Shown: one piece after another, positions 376 through 64,000 of the stretch
How positions within the stretch are numbered: position 1 is the first letter of the stretch
How the letters are laid out: every line of letters starts with the position of its first letter
Virus record (IMG/VR): IMGVR_UViG_3300020390_000003
Location: 8,458-72,457 of that record
Reading direction: 5' to 3' (one strand)
DNA from: a virus
Length of the DNA stretch: 64,000 nucleotides
Position numbers and translations under genes: made by a program
The notes under the pieces: model-generated
Database searches by the model: none
Told to the model about the DNA's origin: nothing
The model's input: only the letters and a program-made list of their open reading frames with translations

Positions 376-448
376 ACTTCGGTAGCTCAGTTGGTAGAGC
401 AGCGGTCTCCAAAACCGTAGGTCGTAGGTTCGAGTCCTTCCCGTTGTG
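376..448 (+). tRNA. tRNA-Trp(CCA), with stem mismatches
   Basis: TAGCTCAGTTGGTAGAGC D arm; anticodon arm GCGGT-CTCCAAA-ACCGT; GGTTCGAGTCC T arm; two T-T mismatches in the acceptor stem and one in the T stem. Confidence 0.85.
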
Positions 449-585
449 CATACTTAGAGAGAGCGAAAGCGGATCATTGGCATAGATGCGATGAAGTAAG
501 TAGCGCAGAGAAAAGATACCGGGAATTATGCGCCCGGCATCACATTAAACAATCGGGAAACATAACAACTTTTATTACTTAACAA

Positions 586-35743: not shown

Positions 35744-36232
35744 ATGAAGCTTTTTTTATACTCAATCCTCAGTATATTTTTACTTAGCGCTTGCTCAAGC
35801 ACAGATGATACCGCTATTGATCAAAAAACAGAAATAGAAGGTAATAACGAATTGCAAGGGGTTTGGATTCTTGAAAATAAAATAAATAAAAATTCTAAAG
35901 CCGAAATAACTACTGATTGTGATTTACAACACGGTAAAATTATTTTTACAGAAAGAGGTAGTGAAGCTGAAATAACAATAGGGTCTATAAATACAGTGGG
36001 TGATTGTGAAAAATCGATAACATCATTTAATCAAGTTTTTATTAATCCAAGGTTAAGGCTGAGGATATTGACTCCTTATGATGTAAATAAACCTGATTTA
36101 GAATACGAGTATGAAGCTTATTTTTTAGGAGATAAATTATCTATAACTTTTATTGGAAAAGGAGAGATAGGATACCCTAAAGATTACATTACTGTTTCTG
36201 AACAAGAAACTTTCATATATAGAAAACAATAA
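35744..36232 (+). CDS. Lipoprotein (lipocalin-like), possible superinfection-exclusion moron
   Basis: Lipobox LLSAC; LQGVWILE; AT-rich; own TATCTTAG-like promoter and terminator. Confidence 0.65.
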   Translation: MKLFLYSILSIFLLSACSSTDDTAIDQKTEIEGNNELQGVWILENKINKNSKAEITTDCDLQHGKIIFTERGSEAEITIGSINTVGDCEKSITSFNQVFINPRLRLRILTPYDVNKPDLEYEYEAYFLGDKLSITFIGKGEIGYPKDYITVSEQETFIYRKQ

Positions 36233-36254
36233 AGGGGCCGAAGCCCCTATTTTT
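36229..36254. terminator. Bidirectional terminator
   Basis: AGGGGC-CGAA-GCCCCT flanked by A/T tracts. Confidence 0.75.
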
Positions 36255-36867
36255 ATAATCTTACTTGCGTAAATACCTGTTCTAATATTTGAGCAGGGTA
36301 CATCTTGACTTTACCAAAACGAGGATCCGGTATTTCATCAGTTAGCAATCCTTTCTCTTTACATAATTTTGAAGCTGCACGTCCTAGACGGCTTGCTAGT
36401 TTAATGTTTACAGACACCCCGTTAAGATTGCCATATCCTACTACTGTAAAATATTCCGGGCGTGTACTTGTTTTAGCTTTAAGTTCCCCTACTTCACGTC
36501 TTACTTCTGCTAAAGCCTCCTGATTTTCACGCATCATACGTATGGATTGTTCCATAATATCAAGGGTGCTCATAGGTTTACTTTGTGCTTTTTCAAGTTC
36601 TTCCCATCGCAATATCAACTTTGCACGAGCTTCATCATTAAACTTTGTAGCAATATATAAACTTTCGGTTTTTGAAAGTTGATACATTGGTTTTGCACGA
36701 TTCTGAGAATCAATATAAGAGGTCAATCCAAATTTGGATTGACCTAAATTAACCCAAGTTTCTTCCATCTTGCGAATATCACGCATTAAATGACCGTGAT
36801 TTTTACCTGTTACTTCTGAAATTTGTAAACTGGTTATTTTACCGTTGTCTAAAACTAAATTTCTCAT
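36253..36867 (-). CDS. Rha-family phage regulatory protein / antirepressor
   Basis: ITSLQISEVTGKNHGHLMRDIRKM...YIDSQNRAKPMYQL...KFNDEARAKLILRWEELE. Confidence 0.88.
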   Translation of the reverse strand: MRNLVLDNGKITSLQISEVTGKNHGHLMRDIRKMEETWVNLGQSKFGLTSYIDSQNRAKPMYQLSKTESLYIATKFNDEARAKLILRWEELEKAQSKPMSTLDIMEQSIRMMRENQEALAEVRREVGELKAKTSTRPEYFTVVGYGNLNGVSVNIKLASRLGRAASKLCKEKGLLTDEIPDPRFGKVKMYPAQILEQVFTQVRL

Positions 36868-37172
36868 AGCGCATTTGTATTAAGATTAGACAATGTAGTT
36901 TGGTGAGTCAACAACTCTTTTAAAGAAGCAATGAGCGTGATTTGTTGTTGTAGGCTATTGACAATTTGAGAAGCAGTTTTCGGCTTAAAACTGCTTTGTT
37001 TAGAAAGCACATAATTAACTAGTTGATGATGCGCTTTTAAATGATCACTAATATCTGCTTGCTCATAAAATTCAGAAAGCTTGTCATGTAAAACTTGCGA
37101 ATTGGCTTTAACAAATAATTGATTTGCAATTTGAGAATTGCGTTTACTGGTTTTCTTTTCTGTGTTTCGCAT
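36864..37172 (-). CDS. Hypothetical protein, leader gene of the Rha operon
   Basis: Coupled to rha; its start codon lies within a repeated motif. Confidence 0.6.
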   Translation of the reverse strand: MRNTEKKTSKRNSQIANQLFVKANSQVLHDKLSEFYEQADISDHLKAHHQLVNYVLSKQSSFKPKTASQIVNSLQQQITLIASLKELLTHQTTLSNLNTNAL

Positions 37173-37343
37173 TAGAAAAAAATTAAATTAAACAATAAGA
37201 GCGTAGCTCCCTCTAAGTTGCGAAACACACCAGTTGACGAGCAAATGGAATCGAGAGAGACTACGCCTGTATTGTAGCCTAAATATTCGGTAAAAAAAAG
37301 ATTGAAATACTCAATCAACTGTATGTTTCGCATTTCAAACATA
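37162..37343 (-). promoter_or_regulatory. Structured leader with complementary repeats (antisense/attenuator-like)
   Basis: TGTTTCGCA at 37163-37171 and 37324-37332; complement TGCGAAACAC at 37219-37228 inside a hairpin; promoter TATGTTTG (-) 37336-37343. Confidence 0.55.
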
Positions 37344-37433
37344 CAAAAGAAATTTTAATCTACACCATTAGTACTTAAAAAAAATAAATGTTACAGTATT
37401 GTTCAATCAAATAACGGTGTATTATAGTAAAGG

Positions 37434-37606
37434 TTAGATAGGTGGATTTACCTGAGCTAAGAATTGATAGCCTTTGGTTCAACCTCATTTTTAAAATGCA
37501 CAAGAAACTTTTTCACACAAGCTGTGTAAGTCTTACGGGTGCTTGGTGAGTTGTATTTTAACTCACAATCTCTCGAATACTTAGTTAACCATTTTCGAGT
37601 ATTCAT
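37434..37606 (-). pseudogene. Internally deleted integron-like tyrosine recombinase
   Basis: 49 aa MNTRKWLTKYSRDCELKYNSPSTRKTYTACVKKFL resembles the integrase SAM-like N-terminus; joined out of frame to QFLAQVNPPI-stop, resembling an IntI/Xer C-terminal tail. Confidence 0.6.
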
Positions 37607-37645
37607 AATTGACGTGTTAATTTTATTGGTGTTAGTGATGGGTTT

Positions 37646-37669
37646 GCATATATAGTAGTTGTGTGCAAT
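37646..37669 (+). promoter_or_regulatory. attI-like recombination site
   Basis: GCATATATAGTA-GTTGTGTGCAAT: unpaired GTT core about 50 bp upstream of the recombinase start, with no palindromic left arm. Confidence 0.5.
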
Positions 37670-37859
37670 AAAAAATTGATGCAGCCCACTTAACCGATAT
37701 TCCGTTCGGGTTGCTTTCACACCTCGGTGGGAAGTATTAACGAGCTTTGGACACTCTTACTTTTTAAGGTTTCTAATACATTAGTGGTAATCCCGCTGGT
37801 TTCTGCATCAATTCAATTTTTTACTGTTCACTTCGCCATACAACAACGTATAACAAAAA

Positions 37860-38006
37860 TTACTTACTATTCGTTTCTTGATGAAGTTTGTTTATCATAT
37901 AGCTTATCAGCCCACTAAAGTTCTCAACTCCAAGCACCAAAACAGATAAGTCATTACCCTTTTGGTGCATTTCGTCAGTTATTGTAATTGTTACTTTTTT
38001 AGTCAT
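37860..38006 (-). CDS. 48-aa ribbon-helix-helix-like protein
   Basis: MTKKVTITITDEMHQKGNDLSVLVLGVENFSGLISYMINKLHQETNSK, translated by hand. Confidence 0.55.
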   Translation of the reverse strand: MTKKVTITITDEMHQKGNDLSVLVLGVENFSGLISYMINKLHQETNSK

Positions 38007-38007
38007 T

Positions 38008-38187
38008 TTAAAAAATTAGTTTAGCGTTTAATATTCCTTTTTCAGTAAAGTCAACTTTTTTTAATTCCTTATAATCACATTCAGGATAAAAAGAAAGTAA
38101 ATCTTTTGCGCATTCTCTATTGCTAATAGTCCAACCTATTTGTTTAGTTATTAAATCAACTAATTTTTTAAAATTTTGTAAGTACAT
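38008..38187 (-). CDS. 59-aa hypothetical protein
   Basis: ATG 38187 downstream of a consensus promoter TTTG-19nt-TATCTTTG (38245-38215). Confidence 0.6.
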   Translation of the reverse strand: MYLQNFKKLVDLITKQIGWTISNRECAKDLLSFYPECDYKELKKVDFTEKGILNAKLIF

Positions 38188-38337
38188 AATATCTGTTTTT
38201 AATTGTTTACTTGTCAAAGATAGTAAATACTTTATACATACCAAACAAATACAATAATTTTTTTCACGTAACTTTTGTTATACAATTCCGTTAGCCTACA
38301 ATAGCCCATCGAGGGCACGCAATCAAACCAGTAAAAA

Positions 38338-38505
38338 TCAATTCTCCACCAAAGGTTTTAAGCAAAGTCTGGCTTCATTTGCATACTGCTTTAACGTATC
38401 AATTTGATAGTCTGTAATTGGTTTCTTTTGGTTGAGAATACGCCACATATAGGTATTGTAACAATGTGCATTATGTATTCTTTGTTCTTTCTCTGAAGCA
38501 TCCAT
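38338..38505 (-). CDS. Cassette gene, 55-aa hypothetical protein
   Basis: MDASEKEQ... fits between inverted repeats 38290-38303 and 38538-38551. Confidence 0.6.
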   Translation of the reverse strand: MDASEKEQRIHNAHCYNTYMWRILNQKKPITDYQIDTLKQYANEARLCLKPLVEN

Positions 38506-38548
38506 AGTGATGATTTTTAATAGTTTAAAAGATTGCTTATTGTAGGCT

Positions 38549-38717
38549 AACGGGCGGTGTATGGCCACGCATCGGCAATCGTCGGTTAATATTTGTTCAA
38601 TTCATTTATAATTCGATTGGCTACAGATAGCTAACAAAATGTAAAGCTTATAGATGCGTAGCTCAATCGGCTTTTACGTGTATGCTACGCATCCACAAGC
38701 CTTACACACCGCCCGTT
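38549..38717. repeat. attC-like site 2
   Basis: AAC-GGGCGGTGT...ACACCGCCC-GTT with 2-nt bulge; inner hairpin GATGCGTAGC/GCTACGCATC. Confidence 0.75.
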
Positions 38718-38727
38718 GTGCATAATA

Positions 38728-39147
38728 CTACAACTCGATTTGTAAATTGATATTACCAGACAAAACGCTTTCAATATCAATGGTGTATCTTAATTCGTGC
38801 CATATTGCAACCTTGTAGTTATTCCATTCCATATACTTTTTTTCTTTGTACTTGTCTTTAACCTCTTTAAGCCTTTCTCTTTTTGCTTTTGGTAGTTTAG
38901 AAGTGCAGAAGTATGCTAATCTCAAATCAACCTTATCCAAGGTTAAAGAATCTCGCCAATGAGATAGTTGTGCGTTTACATCACCTAATTCAAATTCTAA
39001 TCCATCGGCAAAAAGTATATTATCTTTGTACTTTTTTAAAGTGGTTTGTTCAGCTATTTCCGTTATTTGCTTTTCAATAGCTTTAACAGTTGCGTTTGCA
39101 CTAAAGCGTTTTTGTAGTGCTTCTATTAAAAATTTTTGTAATTCCAT
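38728..39147 (-). CDS. Cassette gene, 139-aa hypothetical protein
   Basis: ORF fills the space between inverted repeats 38715-38728 and 39151-39164. Confidence 0.7.
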   Translation of the reverse strand: MELQKFLIEALQKRFSANATVKAIEKQITEIAEQTTLKKYKDNILFADGLEFELGDVNAQLSHWRDSLTLDKVDLRLAYFCTSKLPKAKRERLKEVKDKYKEKKYMEWNNYKVAIWHELRYTIDIESVLSGNINLQIEL

Positions 39148-39161
39148 ACCGTACTATGCAC

Positions 39162-39285
39162 AACACTATATATAATTAATAGCCTGTGTTGTGCTTAATT
39201 TAAAGGCTATTAAGTGTTTAATAATTCAGTTTTAATTCGATAGGCAATCGCTTATTTACGTCTACTAATCATATATTTTAACGTT
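39162..39285. repeat. attC-like site 3
   Basis: AAC-3nt-ATATATAATTAATAG...CTACTAATCATATAT-6nt-GTT; 13/15 complementary. Confidence 0.65.
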
Positions 39286-39313
39286 AGGAAAAATGTCCTA
39301 AAGGCACGTATTG

Positions 39314-39496
39314 CTACGCTTTTAAAATTTGGTCAACCTCATTGTCCGTTAATTGTCCGGTGTGTTCATAGCCTTGCTTTAACCCATATTCTAAAACCTT
39401 TTTAACTTGTAATTTAGTCATAGGCTTACCTTTATGAGTAAAGGCTTTATAACTTCTGTCTAATTGGGTTAAAGCACCCTCAATATCTGCATTCAT
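39314..39496 (-). CDS. Cassette gene, 60-aa hypothetical protein
   Basis: Single ORF between sites 3 and 4. Confidence 0.65.
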   Translation of the reverse strand: MNADIEGALTQLDRSYKAFTHKGKPMTKLQVKKVLEYGLKQGYEHTGQLTDNEVDQILKA

Positions 39497-39536
39497 ATTA
39501 TTAATTTTAAATTCCTTCGCTTGCTCGATTGCCTCT

Positions 39537-39699
39537 AACGGTCAGGGTATGTCTACACATCGACAATCAATATGTGTATTTGCTATTTAAAGACTTACGC
39601 TAAGTCAACTACATCTAACAAAATATATACTCCATAGATGCGTAGCCAATGCTTCTCCTGTGTAGGCTACGCCTCCACGAAGCATATACCCTGACCGTT
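39537..39699. repeat. attC-like site 4
   Basis: AAC-GGTCAGGGTAT...ATACCCTGACC-GTT; internal sequence homologous to site 2. Confidence 0.75.
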
Positions 39700-39720
39700 A
39701 AACCGCCACTAAACTAATCT

Positions 39721-39799
39721 TTAATTTATACTAGATATAATTATAATGCTATTAATTTTCTATTAAATTTGTATTTAGTATAGATTTTGATTATAGAAA
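39721..39799 (+). promoter_or_regulatory. Late promoter
   Basis: TTCTAT-TAAATTTG (-7 at 39764-39771), same motif as 34938-34951. Confidence 0.6.
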
Positions 39800-41323
39800 A
39801 TGGCACAGCAAGGTAATTTTGCAGCATTGCAGCGTTTACAGCCTACTCAGGGCTTATCGCGTGATGTTCAGTATTGGAATAGTGATGCGGCAAGACGCCG
39901 AACTGAGAATCGTATTGATGAAAATATTCAGTATCAACGGGAGCAAGCGCGTAAAAAAGCACAATCAGAACTTTATGATAAATGGGTAAAACCCGGGCAA
40001 ATGTATGATACGGGTAGTGCGTCTTTAAATGAAGTGCTTGCCCGTGGATTAAGCCAAGCGCGTGAACAATATTTGCCTAACCTTCAGATTTTAGAAAACC
40101 CCAATGCTTCGCAAGAAGAAAAGATCAAAGCACGCCTTCGCTTAGATAATCTTAATCAACTTCCTGAGCGTTTTAAAACCGTTACAGATAAATACACCGC
40201 AGAATGGAATGCCTATCAAGAAGCCAAGCAAAATGGCAATGCGTATGATCAGCCGGAACTTGATAAAGCATTTCAAGGTGGTTTTAAAAGCTATGAAATT
40301 GGCCTTGATGATATGGCTAATCCTGTTATTGCTTTTGTAGATAAGAATGGGGATGGCCAAAACGATTTGATAGGTGCACAAACCTTTGATCAAATTAGTC
40401 AAGGTATGCCGCTTTTTGACTGGCAGAAAAAATACAATATTGATACGATGGCAGAAGATGTTGCCAAGCGTATAGGCACCACAGATAAGACCGAAGTAAC
40501 TAATGGCGGTTTTGGTAGCATTCAAGAAAAATCTGCAAACCTTGATGGTATTCGCACAGCCGCACAAAAACTGTTTTATGATGCTAATGGTGGCGCTACC
40601 GAAGTAGCAAAAAGCGCGCTAAGAGAATCCGGATTGAATTATCAAAACCCCACTGCACAAGACTTGCTGCAGGTTGAAGATAGTTTTGTCAAACAAGCAA
40701 TGTCTTATACTGATTATATGCGCAAGGAAACCCTTGATGCTAGTGGGCAAACATCGCGTATGCGTGAGAATCGACTTGCTAGTGGTGATAATCCTAATGC
40801 TGTGATCACCGAGCCGGTAAATCCTTCACAAGAAGTTTGGGGTGATGCTTATAGTACAATTGCGCCTAATGCAAAAAGTGTAGGTGTAAACGGCGTTAAG
40901 TTAAGCGCCATACGTGACGGAGAAAATACCATTACCGATGCCAATGTGCAAAACGTGACTTATGATGCCAATGGCAATATGCTTGTAGATGTGGTTTATC
41001 AAGACATAAAAAGCTCTACGTATAAAGCGAAAGAAGCAAGCATACTAGAACAGCTCGCACAAGCGCAAAAATCTCAGGACGTATTAGAAGAAGCCGGGAA
41101 TACCGAAGAAGCTAAAAAATTTGACGATAAGATACAAGGCTATAATATGGAATTAAATCGACTTTCTACCGGAGCTCAAAACAAGCGTAAAGTAGTACGC
41201 ATACCTAAAGAAGATGAAGCAAGTGTTGCACAACAACTAGGCGGTATTGAAGCGATAAAACAGCGCGTAGGAGTTCAAAATAACACTACCCAAACTAATG
41301 ATCCACTAGGAATATTTGAATAA
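39800..41323 (+). CDS. Internal virion / ejection protein 2
   Basis: Helical Q/A/D-rich 507 aa ending NDPLGIFE; lies between pilot and giant protein. Confidence 0.6.
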   Translation: MAQQGNFAALQRLQPTQGLSRDVQYWNSDAARRRTENRIDENIQYQREQARKKAQSELYDKWVKPGQMYDTGSASLNEVLARGLSQAREQYLPNLQILENPNASQEEKIKARLRLDNLNQLPERFKTVTDKYTAEWNAYQEAKQNGNAYDQPELDKAFQGGFKSYEIGLDDMANPVIAFVDKNGDGQNDLIGAQTFDQISQGMPLFDWQKKYNIDTMAEDVAKRIGTTDKTEVTNGGFGSIQEKSANLDGIRTAAQKLFYDANGGATEVAKSALRESGLNYQNPTAQDLLQVEDSFVKQAMSYTDYMRKETLDASGQTSRMRENRLASGDNPNAVITEPVNPSQEVWGDAYSTIAPNAKSVGVNGVKLSAIRDGENTITDANVQNVTYDANGNMLVDVVYQDIKSSTYKAKEASILEQLAQAQKSQDVLEEAGNTEEAKKFDDKIQGYNMELNRLSTGAQNKRKVVRIPKEDEASVAQQLGGIEAIKQRVGVQNNTTQTNDPLGIFE

Positions 41324-41340
41324 AACAGATTAGCACTTTT

Positions 41341-41574
41341 TTATAAGTTTGTCTTTTCTTCAAAAAACGATAAATCTTTTTTATGCTTTGTTATTTTTTT
41401 ATACTCCAAATCATTTACGTTATTCTTGTTAATTTTATCAGCAATTAAAGTTATACTTTTTACTGTATCGTGATCTAGATTACCACGTCTTACATCCATT
41501 AAAACACCTGTAAGCATTTGGTTTAATTGCTTAGAGTTATTTACTTCAAAATTCAAATCTCTTTTAGCTTCCAT
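41341..41574 (-). CDS. Hypothetical protein
   Basis: Coupled ORF. Confidence 0.6.
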   Translation of the reverse strand: MEAKRDLNFEVNNSKQLNQMLTGVLMDVRRGNLDHDTVKSITLIADKINKNNVNDLEYKKITKHKKDLSFFEEKTNL

Positions 41575-41989
41575 TTTTTAATTCTCTTTTAAGTTTTATT
41601 ATTAATCTTTTTGTTTCAATCATCCCTTTTGGAATTGAATTTTTATTCTTTCTCAATAAATTCGATATGTAATAGTCTGTTAAGTTTCTAGAATGAAATT
41701 TTGAAACGGTATCTTTATCTGATTTCAGTTTGATTTTAGTTCTGGTTTTAGAATATTGATCTTTCCATTTTTGACGATATTCTGAAATATCACATTCCAA
41801 TTCTATACATCTTTTTTTTATTCTATTTAACTCTCCTGTTTTTATGAGGCAAGATTTACAAAAGCTTCTGAAAGAATTATATATTTTCAATTCGCCTTTA
41901 GCGTTTTCTTGCTTTATCTTCTTTATATAAAAAAATTCTTTTGTCTTTGGATAAGACAGATTACACTTTCCACATTTTTTATATTCCAT
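41564..41989 (-). CDS. Zinc-binding basic protein
   Basis: KKCGKC...FF...CKSC; very K-rich. Confidence 0.6.
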   Translation of the reverse strand: MEYKKCGKCNLSYPKTKEFFYIKKIKQENAKGELKIYNSFRSFCKSCLIKTGELNRIKKRCIELECDISEYRQKWKDQYSKTRTKIKLKSDKDTVSKFHSRNLTDYYISNLLRKNKNSIPKGMIETKRLIIKLKRELKNGS

Positions 41990-42260
41990 TTTTTAATGGG
42001 GTTAATGATTCAAGTACCTCGCTACGTTTATAATACACTCGCCTTCCTTGTCCGTAAGCCTTAAGCTTACCGCTTTTCGTACGTTTCCAAAGGGTTGACT
42101 TTGTAATCTGTAATAAATCACAAACCTCATCCCTAGTCATTATCTGCTCAGCTGGCTTGTCTGAATTTTTGGGTTGATGCTGTATGCAAGCTTTTACACA
42201 ATCAACTATGATTGCTTGGAATTCAGACATAGGCAATGAAATCAATACAATTTTTTCCAT
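41979..42260 (-). CDS. HTH_17 / excisionase-like DNA-binding protein
   Basis: MTRDEVCDLLQITKSTLWKRTKSGKLKAYGQGRRVYYKRSEV. Confidence 0.85.
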   Translation of the reverse strand: MEKIVLISLPMSEFQAIIVDCVKACIQHQPKNSDKPAEQIMTRDEVCDLLQITKSTLWKRTKSGKLKAYGQGRRVYYKRSEVLESLTPLKNGI

Positions 42261-63849: not shown

Positions 63850-63927
63850 TGTTGGGAAAGTGTCGGGAAAATAGAGGTGTAAAACTAAAAAACCCCTGCG
63901 TTAACAGGGGTTTAGGTGAAATGTTAG
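63850..63927. promoter_or_regulatory. Prophage attachment junction / terminator
   Basis: Tandem TGTYGGGAAA (63850-63859, 63861-63870); inverted repeat AAACCCCTG/CAGGGGTTT (63890-63913) next to tRNA 3' end. Confidence 0.55.
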
Positions 63928-64000
63928 TGACCTCGGCAGGATTCAAACCTGCAACCTTCTGAGCCGTAATCAGATGCGCTATTCAGTTGCGCCACGAGGC
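63928..64000 (-). tRNA. tRNA-Arg(ACG), first base cut off by window edge; probable integration target
   Basis: Reverse complement GCCTCGTGGCGCAACTGAATAGCGCATCTGATTACGGCTCAGAAGGTTGCAGGTTTGAATCCTGCCGAGGTCA. Confidence 0.95.

What the first reader, a model, noticed from the sequence alone, without database searches (positions are those of the whole stretch)
38549..39699. Two classes of site; sites 2 and 4 are homologous with compensatory arms
Seen: sites 2 (169 bp) and 4 (163 bp) have different but self-complementary outer arms (GGGCGGTGT/ACACCGCCC and GGTCAGGGTAT/ATACCCTGACC), each followed by a 2-nt bulge on the right arm. They share internal blocks GTATG..AC.CATCG.CAATC, TATTTG, CTAACAAAAT and ATAGATGCGTAGC...GTGTA.GCTACGC.TCCAC. 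Sites 1 and 3 form a second class with 3/6-nt spacers. Inference: covariation points to selection on a folded single-stranded structure with extrahelical bases, as in attC. The conserved interior may have an additional role such as a transcription signal or small RNA.
Basis: partly seen in the sequence, partly recalled or inferred. Interest (0 to 1): 0.7.

Follow-up and report, generated by a model that had tools for sequence, protein, structure and literature searches.

The report
Long hairpin recombination sites bounding gene cassettes
Two related 165-base DNA hairpin elements in a marine flavobacterial phage look like the joints of an integron-like gene-cassette system, and the same elements occur in other phages and in bacterial chromosomes.

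Summary
Sites 2 (38549-38717) and 4 (39537-39699) are homologous (79% identity), each closed by AAC...GTT and a different, perfectly complementary arm.

A covariance model found the family in 4 more virus records, in cultured Tenacibaculum phage JQ, in metagenome contigs and in 6 of 151 flavobacterial-family genomes. In 22 sequences the closing helix is Watson-Crick in 239 of 241 cells, and 8 of 11 pairs show compensated changes.

The sites mark cassette borders:
- Near-identical sites share left flanks and diverge directly after GTT.
- The signature GTT-x...x'-AAC occurs 62 times against 7.8 expected.
- One genome has a canonical array beside a 272-aa Xer/IntI-clade recombinase.
- Another genome has at least 10 scattered copies of a 318-nt ORF-less unit ending at G|TT. 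The window keeps only a 49-codon recombinase remnant.

Best reading: attC-like folded-strand recombination sites. They look like a short "3/6-spacer" site extended by about 90 nt.

A.C mismatches on the plus strand outnumber G.T 64 to 8, so the minus strand is the likelier folded strand. The interior holds two mutually exclusive, covarying folds. I found no extrahelical bases in the closing helix and no promoter or known RNA family.

Sibling notes of this scan cover the same array. I class this as a new variant of a known kind.

The parts
38549..38717 (+). Site 2, long-class site (AAC ... GTT, 169 nt)
   Evidence: model R1 173 bits
38552..38560 (+). Site 2 left arm of closing helix P1 (pairs with 38706-38714)
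38706..38714 (+). Site 2 right arm of P1
38564..38573 (+). Site 2 box B1 (direct copy of B3; pairs with B2 in fold II)
38631..38635 (+). Inner CTAAC, read as the relic AAC box of a short-class site
   Evidence: comparison with short-class sites
38640..38662 (+). Site 2 5' strand of helix P2a plus box B2 (pairs with 38684-38706 in fold I)
   Evidence: I3
38669..38673 (+). Site 2 5' strand of helix P2b (pairs with 38697-38701 in fold II)
38684..38706 (+). Site 2 box B3 plus 3' strand of P2
39537..39699 (+). Site 4, long-class site (163 nt), last site of the array
   Evidence: R1 174.8 bits
39540..39550 (+). Site 4 left arm of P1 (pairs with 39686-39696)
   Evidence: I25
39686..39696 (+). Site 4 right arm of P1
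   Evidence: I25
39552..39561 (+). Site 4 box B1
39637..39646 (+). Site 4 box B2
39649..39655 (+). Site 4 5' strand of P2b (pairs with 39679-39685)
39666..39675 (+). Site 4 box B3
37842..38292 (+). Site 1, short class (3-nt/6-nt spacers) with a two-gene unit in its loop
   Evidence: homologous unit in phages JQ and Danklef
39162..39285 (+). Site 3, short class (spacers ACT / TTTAAC), 124 nt
   Evidence: 79% match to a site of phage P12002S (H12)
38326..38525 (+). Further AAC...GTT hairpin (3/3 spacers) that encloses the small ORF of the site-2 cassette
   Evidence: joints
38338..38505 (-). Cassette ORF (55 aa) whose start lies about 45 nt from site 2
   Evidence: no Pfam or PHROG family
38728..39147 (-). 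Cassette ORF (139 aa) between sites 2 and 3
39314..39496 (-). Cassette ORF (60 aa) whose start lies about 40 nt from site 4
37457..37606 (-). 49-codon N-terminal remnant of the small cassette recombinase
   Evidence: 50% identity over 48 aa to the 266-aa recombinase of G002

Best explanation
Sites 2 and 4 are two members of a 160-175-nt family of attC-like recombination sites. These sites join gene cassettes in an integron-like system of marine Flavobacteriaceae and their phages. A small (266-272 aa) tyrosine recombinase of the Xer/IntI clade is inferred to act on one folded DNA strand, most likely the minus ('bottom') strand, and to cross over at the G|TT on the right end of each site. In this window the recombinase is reduced to a remnant, so the array is frozen unless a host or co-infecting enzyme acts in trans.

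In anatomy, a long site is a short-class site (YAAC + 3 nt + arm ... arm + 5-6 nt + GTT) that carries about 90 extra nucleotides on its 5' side. That extension has a second AAC and an arm that pairs perfectly with the former right-hand spacer, which gives an 11-14-bp closing helix (P1) next to the crossover triplets.

The interior can adopt two folds. Fold I is a long coaxial hairpin (P1+P2a+P3), closed by G.T pairs on the minus strand only. Fold II is a three-way junction (P1, B1:B2, P2b).

Shown: homology, covariation, cassette-border signature, association with the recombinase, dispersal of an ORF-less unit. Inferred: single-strand folding, the strand, the crossover point, and any role of the two folds.
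For: Family: model R1 finds full-length sites in virus records G000-G005, in phage JQ at 109.8 bits, and in metagenome contigs. It also finds them in 6 of 151 genomes of the family of G006, the genome that holds a Lacinutrix iliipiscaria contig.

Helix P1: 121 of 121 cells paired in 11 sequences, with 8 of 11 pairs changed on both sides. No shuffle of 500 reached the observed percentage paired or covariation score for the whole structure, and the slid controls gave 25-39% paired. In 22 sequences, 239 of 241 cells are Watson-Crick. The arms change faster than the interior: site 2 against L062a is 8/16 in the arms and 89% in the interior.

Cassette borders: site 4, L063a and L067a are 98-99% identical with the same left flank, but they continue as GTTAAAC, GTTGTGC and GTTAGCT. 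The pattern GTT-x...x'-AAC occurs 62 times in 11 array regions against 7.84 in shuffles. AAC...GTT hairpins number 56 against 8.2.

Recombinase: 266-271-aa genes sit beside the arrays in G001, G002 and G003, and a remnant is present here.

Chromosomal array: G007 has a 272-aa homologue (41% identity), followed by 4 identical long sites in 7 kb. Of 9 ORFs that do not overlap a site, 8 lie on the plus strand and diverge from the recombinase.

Dispersal: G045 has at least 10 copies. In 8 of 10 both ends were located, giving a 318-320-nt ORF-less unit that begins GTT-x and ends ...G, with unrelated flanks. The unit is followed by TT in 7 of 10 copies, AT in 2 and CT in 1.

Strand: A.C outnumbers G.T 64 to 8 in P2a+P3, and 20 of 22 rows have more A.C than G.T. 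Fold I is more stable on the minus strand in 11 of 11 sequences.

Independent experiment, read as passages only: a Polaribacter phage P12002L attC was recombined by IntI1 at G|TT, bottom strand only (PMC9892861).
Against: No recombination was observed here. Only assembled contigs could be laid, and they show variants, not excision.

Features that define canonical attC, as I recall them, are missing. The long class has no unpaired central spacer and no extrahelical bases, and at 163-169 nt it exceeds the usual range.

The recombinases lack the integron-integrase insertion and score below TIGR02249's cut-off (92-197 bits against 265).

Phages JQ and P12002S carry arrays but no tyrosine recombinase (0 of 2). 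G005 has none either.

One of the two breakpoints between the sibling phages P12002S and P12002L lies 6-8 nt before GTT, in a 5-nt microhomology. That fits homologous or illegitimate recombination.

I could not confirm that the P12002L site tested in the paper belongs to this family, because its sequence is in a closed supplement.

In the phage arrays the inferred folded strand is also the coding strand, so an RNA-level reading is not excluded there.
Confidence: 0.72

Rival explanations
1. The elements are structured RNAs in the cassette transcripts: a leader, attenuator or processing signal just upstream of each small ORF. The two alternative folds would act as a switch. The hairpin of fold I is followed on the minus strand by a U-rich tract.
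For: In the phage arrays an ORF start lies 35-45 nt beyond the site on the minus strand in most of the 14 sites examined. The wobble bias (A.C on plus, which is G.U on minus) matches the coding strand there. Two mutually exclusive helices both covary. UUUUGUUAG follows the fold I hairpin in sites 2 and 4.
Against: In the chromosomal array of G007 the genes are on the plus strand, yet the wobble polarity is unchanged at 3 A.C against 1 G.T per site. P1 is strictly Watson-Crick with almost no G.U (1 T.G in 241 cells), which is unusual for an RNA helix that varies this much. There is no Rfam family and no terminator excess. The U-tract is weak in most members (CAUUGUUAG). The RNA contigs laid did not bear on it.
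Confidence: 0.15
2. They are PeSL-like regulatory cassettes. These are conserved intergenic promoter/stem-loop motifs, as in T4-type phages, that shuffle small genes by homologous recombination between copies rather than by a site-specific enzyme.
For: Conserved intergenic motifs flank many small ORFs of unknown function in phage plastic regions. The non-coding 'frames' are conserved while the ORF between them is replaced. One P12002S/P12002L breakpoint lies in a microhomology. Arrays exist in phages without a recombinase. For the PeSL papers I saw only the search listing and the start of the abstracts (PMC2839356, PMC4122927).
Against: There is no promoter signal. Breakpoints between near-identical sites fall directly after GTT, at the edge of the variable arm and not inside conserved blocks. 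The complementarity of x and x' (62 against 7.84) and the G|TT ends of the dispersed units are not expected from homologous exchange. A dedicated recombinase sits beside arrays in 4 records or genomes.
Confidence: 0.07
3. They are miniature transposable elements (MITE-like, or an end or guide RNA of an IS) moved by a transposase. The cassette-like context would be secondary.
For: At least 10 near-identical 318-nt copies are scattered over at least 9 contigs of G045. The unit has inverted ends.
Against: The arms differ between family members, so they are not conserved terminal repeats for a transposase. The 318-nt unit holds no ORF and has the GTT-x...x'-AAC cassette layout. No target-site duplication beyond the shared GTT is seen. 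In G007 and the phages the sites are arrayed beside a tyrosine recombinase. An IS110-type guide RNA was considered (recalled), but no recombinase gene follows the element.
Confidence: 0.05

Closest known systems
attC sites of sedentary chromosomal integrons (for example Vibrio VCRs)
   Same: Imperfect palindromes bounded by ...AAC and GTT.... Cassette borders lie at G|TT. The start of each cassette is complementary to the bases before its own AAC. Sites within a lineage resemble each other while the cassette genes do not. One strand appears to be favoured for folding.
   Different: The closing helix is continuous, with no unpaired central spacer or extrahelical bases. The length is 163-175 nt. 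The interior has triplicated boxes and two alternative folds. The associated recombinase is 266-272 aa and lacks the integron-integrase insertion. In the phage arrays the genes are inverted relative to the sites. The canonical features are recalled, not tested against an attC model.
Clusters of attC sites lacking an integrase (CALIN) in phages, including Polaribacter phage P12002L (Qi et al. 2023, PMC9892861; passages read)
   Same: Arrays of small ORFs and methyltransferase genes separated by attC-type hairpins in flavobacterial phages. The sibling phage P12002S and P12002L itself carry short-class sites of the kind seen here.
   Different: In the passages I read, the paper describes two predicted sites and does not describe a long class, its covariation, a small recombinase or chromosomal counterparts. 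Its site sequences are in a supplement I could not open.
PeSL promoter/stem-loop cassettes of T4-type phages (PMC2839356, PMC4122927; listing and abstract starts only)
   Same: Conserved intergenic motifs that flank and shuffle small accessory genes in phage genomes.
   Different: No promoter motif was found. The borders are precise at GTT, and a tyrosine recombinase is associated.
Xer/dif-type recombination (XerA, XerC/D)
   Same: The recombinase's best family and structure matches are XerA-type (NF040815 at 140-225 bits; PDB 4a8e, 5hxy).
   Different: The sites are long hairpins in arrays, not a single 28-bp double-stranded dif-like core.

Membership tests
integron attC site | Inverted core boxes ending in AAC and beginning with GTT at the base of the stem | tested here: met
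   21 of 22 aligned sites have AAC/GTT and 1 has AAT/ATT, still paired.
integron attC site | Paired inner arms maintained by structure, not by sequence | tested here: met
   P1 is paired in 121 of 121 cells, with 8 of 11 pairs showing compensated changes. No shuffle of 500 reached the whole-structure percentage paired or covariation score. In 22 sequences 239 of 241 cells are Watson-Crick.
integron attC site | Unpaired central spacer and extrahelical bases (feature recalled) | tested here: not met
   Long class: 0/0 spacers and a continuous helix. The 2-nt bulge is not supported. The short class has 3-nt/5-6-nt asymmetric spacers (11 sites).
integron attC site | Length about 57-141 nt (range recalled) | tested here: not met
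   163 and 169 nt here; 159-186 nt in relatives.
integron attC site | Cassette border at G|TT, with the cassette start complementary to the bases before its own AAC | tested here: met
   62 occurrences against 7.84 expected. Flanks diverge right after GTT in three contexts of one site. The ends of the G045 units agree.
integron attC site | Served by an integron integrase (IntI with its extra domain; TIGR02249 above cut-off) | tested here: not met
   Neighbouring recombinases score 92-197 bits against the cut-off of 265, in two stretches that skip the middle of the model. The G007 protein passes NF040815 (225.4 against 220). The window holds only a 49-codon remnant.
integron attC site | Recognised by the attC covariance models (IntegronFinder, HattCI) | not testable with these tools
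integron attC site | Recombines as a folded bottom strand | not testable with these tools
   Indirect only: wobble bias 64 against 8 and fold energies.
PeSL regulatory cassette | An early promoter in the motif | tested here: not met
   Sigma-70-like sites: 9 against 10.8 expected. TAnnTTTG (recalled Bacteroidetes motif) in 0 of 14 sites.
Known RNA families (Rfam 15) | Match to a curated covariance model | tested here: not met
   No match on the sites at E up to 10.
MITE / IS end | Conserved terminal inverted repeats and a target-site duplication | tested here: not met
   The arms vary between members. No duplication beyond the shared GTT.

The most novel reading that the evidence does not exclude
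The long sites are bistable, strand-coded recombination sites. Conserved A.C/G.T positions would let only the bottom strand form the long recombinogenic hairpin. The duplicated boxes (B1:B2, P2b) would trap the top strand in a three-way junction. This would replace the extrahelical-base mechanism of canonical attC. The same site also drives a selfish, ORF-less 318-nt cassette that has spread to at least 10 GNT sites in one chromosome, using a Xer-like enzyme that lacks the integron-integrase domain.
Probability: 0.22. Interest if true: 0.8.

Novelty: new variant of a known kind. Interest (0 to 1): 0.66.

Why it matters
Integrons are a main route by which bacteria collect accessory genes. They are reported as rare in Bacteroidetes (PMC9024848, passages), although the phylum is listed among carriers (PMC8618304, passages).

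Following these two sites led to a coherent family shared by marine flavobacterial chromosomes, temperate and cultured phages, and free-standing ORF-less units. It has a compact recombinase and a site architecture that departs from textbook attC.

If the sites recombine, phages of bloom-associated Flavobacteriia would exchange small genes with their hosts through a defined, testable mechanism. The bistable, wobble-coded fold would also offer a new answer to how a hairpin site selects its strand. Phage JQ and its host are in culture, so this can be tested directly.

Tried and rejected
Retron RNA, a twister- or hammerhead-type ribozyme, Y RNA and an IS110-type guide RNA were considered from memory. 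They were dropped because no partner gene is present and no Rfam match was found.

An H-type pseudoknot combining B2:B3 with P2b was rejected by reasoning. The connecting loop is only 3 nt and would have to span a 10-bp helix.

A helix P0 between the left flank and the segment after B1 (GATTGC/GCAATC; AATGACCTT/AAGGTCATT; TCAATTA/TAATTGA) has some support. I left it out because it is absent in several members.

The 2-nt bulge was not supported.

Several searches gave nothing useful:
- The search for related loci with the 507-aa virion protein found no relative.
- The 17-nt pattern gave 39 stretches, of which 5 were real and 34 were coding or chance matches.
- The pattern for the divergent subfamily gave 5 stretches. 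Two were known and 3 were chance matches with no model hit.
- blastn of 36000-42000 against cultured phages gave 13 records, none covering sites 2 or 4. The model later found the JQ site.
- tblastn of the five small cassette ORFs against the loci held at that time found nothing.

Read laying used contigs only. Run X7 had no contig over 38214-39148, and the RNA run X12 had none over the long sites. I draw nothing from either. The holders were marine or aquatic metagenomes, and small shares were not interpreted.

The alignment of B1 in the model-based alignment A7 is poor for divergent rows, so its B1:B2 count (158 Watson-Crick cells) understates the pairing. The concerted box changes in L033b, L062b, L067b, G045, G058 and G063 were read by eye.

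Genome counts are lower bounds, because only 18 candidates were scored per genome.

Full report
**What is there.** The window is most of a 72,457-nt, 99%-complete virus record. It has Rha, virion and integrase genes, and DNA matches to Polaribacter and Tenacibaculum phages. Between a decayed recombinase gene (37457-37606, minus strand) and a virion gene (from 39800) lie five small minus-strand ORFs separated by hairpin sites.

- Both begin with AAC and end with GTT.
- They have different but perfectly complementary arms.
- They are 79% identical overall and share the listed blocks.

Both strands of both sites fold better than all 200 shuffles. No Rfam family matches them.

**Homologues.** Exact-pattern scans gave relatives in IMG/VR, in metagenome contigs and in one Lacinutrix iliipiscaria contig. 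I built a covariance model from seven sequences. It then found:
- further members, including divergent ones, in the same virus records;
- a site in cultured Tenacibaculum phage JQ at 109.8 bits;
- hits in 6 of 151 genomes of the family of the Lacinutrix genome.

**Covariation.** In 11 distinct sequences the closing helix P1 (AAC plus 8 further pairs) is paired in 121 of 121 cells. Eight of its 11 pairs changed on both sides and none changed on one side only. For the whole structure, no shuffle of 500 reached the observed percentage paired or covariation score, and the slid controls gave 25-39% paired. In 22 sequences 239 of 241 cells are Watson-Crick.

The arms evolve faster than the interior. 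Site 2 against L062a is 8/16 in the arms and 89% in the interior. L033a against L069a is 10/16 and 81%.

**The interior supports two incompatible folds.**
- Fold I stacks P2a and P3 (box B2 with box B3) on P1.
- Fold II pairs B2 with the upstream box B1, and pairs a loop segment with the 3' strand of P2 (helix P2b).

The P2b core is paired in 55 of 55 cells, with 4 of 5 pairs compensated. B1:B2 shows two compensated changes in phage JQ. Boxes B1, B2 and B3 change together between subfamilies; I read this by eye.

**Which strand folds.** In P2a, the small internal loop and P3, plus-strand A.C mismatches number 64 against 8 G.T. In 20 of 22 rows A.C outnumbers G.T. These positions are G.T pairs on the minus strand. 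With both RNA and DNA parameters:
- fold I is more stable on the minus strand in 11 of 11 sequences;
- fold I beats fold II on the minus strand in 11 of 11;
- fold I beats fold II on the plus strand in only 5 of 11.

**What the sites do.**
- Near-identical sites (site 4, L063a, L067a) share their left flank and diverge directly after GTT.
- Across 11 array regions the pattern GTT-x...x'-AAC, with x' complementary to x, occurs 62 times against 7.84 in shuffles.
- AAC...GTT hairpins occur 56 times against 8.2.
- Small tyrosine recombinases of 266-271 aa sit beside the arrays in G001, G002 and G003. They score best with XerA-type models and below the integron-integrase cut-off. Their nearest solved relatives are XerA, then VchIntIA, then XerD.
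- The window keeps 49 codons that are 50% identical to the start of the G002 enzyme.

Two bacterial genomes add further evidence.
- G007 has a 272-aa homologue, followed by four identical long sites in 7 kb. Of 9 ORFs that do not overlap a site, 8 lie on the plus strand and diverge from the recombinase, which is the textbook integron layout.
- G045 has at least 10 copies of a unit scattered over many contigs. In 8 of 10 copies both ends were located, giving a 318-320-nt ORF-less unit. It begins GTT-x, ends x'-AAC-site-G, and is followed by TT (7 copies), AT (2) or CT (1).

In G007 the genes are on the plus strand, yet the wobble polarity is unchanged. I therefore read the structure as a property of the DNA site rather than of the mRNA.

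**Two classes.** The census separates sites with no spacers (18, the P1 type) from sites with 3 nt on the left and 5-6 nt on the right (11), plus minor forms. Site 1 (37842-38292, with a two-gene unit in its loop) and site 3 (39162-39285) belong to the second class. So do sites of phages JQ, P12002S and P12002L.

The inner part of a long site (CTAAC-AAA-ATGTAAAG ... CTTACA) matches the left box, spacer and arms of a short site. The right arm of P1 occupies the place of the right spacer. The left arm, B1 and an AT-rich motif form a 5' extension of about 90 nt. That AT-rich motif is also found in the loop of short sites. A 32-nt site in G002 consists of P1 alone.

**Literature.**
- Qi et al. 2023 (PMC9892861; passages) reported attC clusters in phages, including Polaribacter phage P12002L. 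They showed IntI1-dependent, bottom-strand recombination of one of its sites at G|TT. The site sequences are in a supplement I could not open.
- The IntegronFinder 2.0 paper (PMC9024848; passages) names one complete integron in Bacteroidetes.
- A review lists Bacteroidota among integron-bearing phyla (PMC8618304; passages).
- The phage JQ paper has no occurrence of 'integrase' or 'lysogen' (PMC11267871; term search).
- Searches with attC, integron and Flavobacteri* or Bacteroidota, and with gene cassette, tyrosine recombinase, phage and attC, listed no paper that describes this site family. I did not read those papers in full.

**Against my reading.**
- No recombination event was observed.
- The long class lacks the unpaired features of canonical attC, and its enzyme lacks the IntI insertion.
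- Three phages with arrays have no tyrosine recombinase.
- One P12002S/P12002L breakpoint lies in a microhomology before GTT.
- In the phage arrays the folded strand is also the coding strand.

**Verdict.** The sites are best read as a new structural variant of attC-type recombination sites, in an integron-like system shared by flavobacterial chromosomes and phages. Other notes of this scan cover the same array.

Noticed in passing
window 38326-38525; also L062 and L065: The small ORF of the site-2 cassette sits inside a further AAC-CAG-arm ... arm-ATA-GTT hairpin. The arms differ but stay complementary in four instances (window, G001 twice, G002). The surrounding non-coding 'frame' is conserved while the ORF differs. 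Contig joints at 38327-38337 to 38514-38524 match this.
   Followed up: partly
L081 (P12002S) 1150-2350 against L083 (P12002L) 1632-1742: The sibling phages differ by about 1080 nt of cassettes. The left end of homology falls at ACGTT. The right junction lies in a 5-nt microhomology 6-8 nt before GTT.
   Followed up: partly
G045, ten loci (L090-L110): A 318-nt ORF-less cassette-like unit is scattered over many contigs of one flavobacterial-family genome, like a MITE. Copies L094 and L104 share their left flank, and the right flank of L104 resembles the left flank of L102.
   Followed up: partly
window 38587-38605; loops of short sites in L081, L062, L080: An AT-rich motif close to GTTAATAnTATTTATTTAATTC recurs in the 5' extension of long sites and in the loop of short sites. 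Its function is unknown.
   Followed up: no
L062 (G001), L080 (phage JQ), L063 (G004): The same cassette frame GTTGGCAGTA ... TACTGCCAAC recurs in three different phages.
   Followed up: no
window 37842-38294: The two-gene unit in the loop of site 1 is 86% identical to part of Tenacibaculum phage JQ and 73% identical to Polaribacter Danklef phages. It is bounded there by the same arms.
   Followed up: partly
window 376-449 and 63927-64000: tRNA-Trp and tRNA-Arg genes lie near the two ends of the window. A 428-aa integrase lies upstream of the window at G000:C1:904-2190.
   Followed up: no
L062 7290-7392 and L064 2787-2868: Truncated long sites (left arm, B1 and AT-rich motif only) occur, one of them at the far end of the G001 array.
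   Followed up: no
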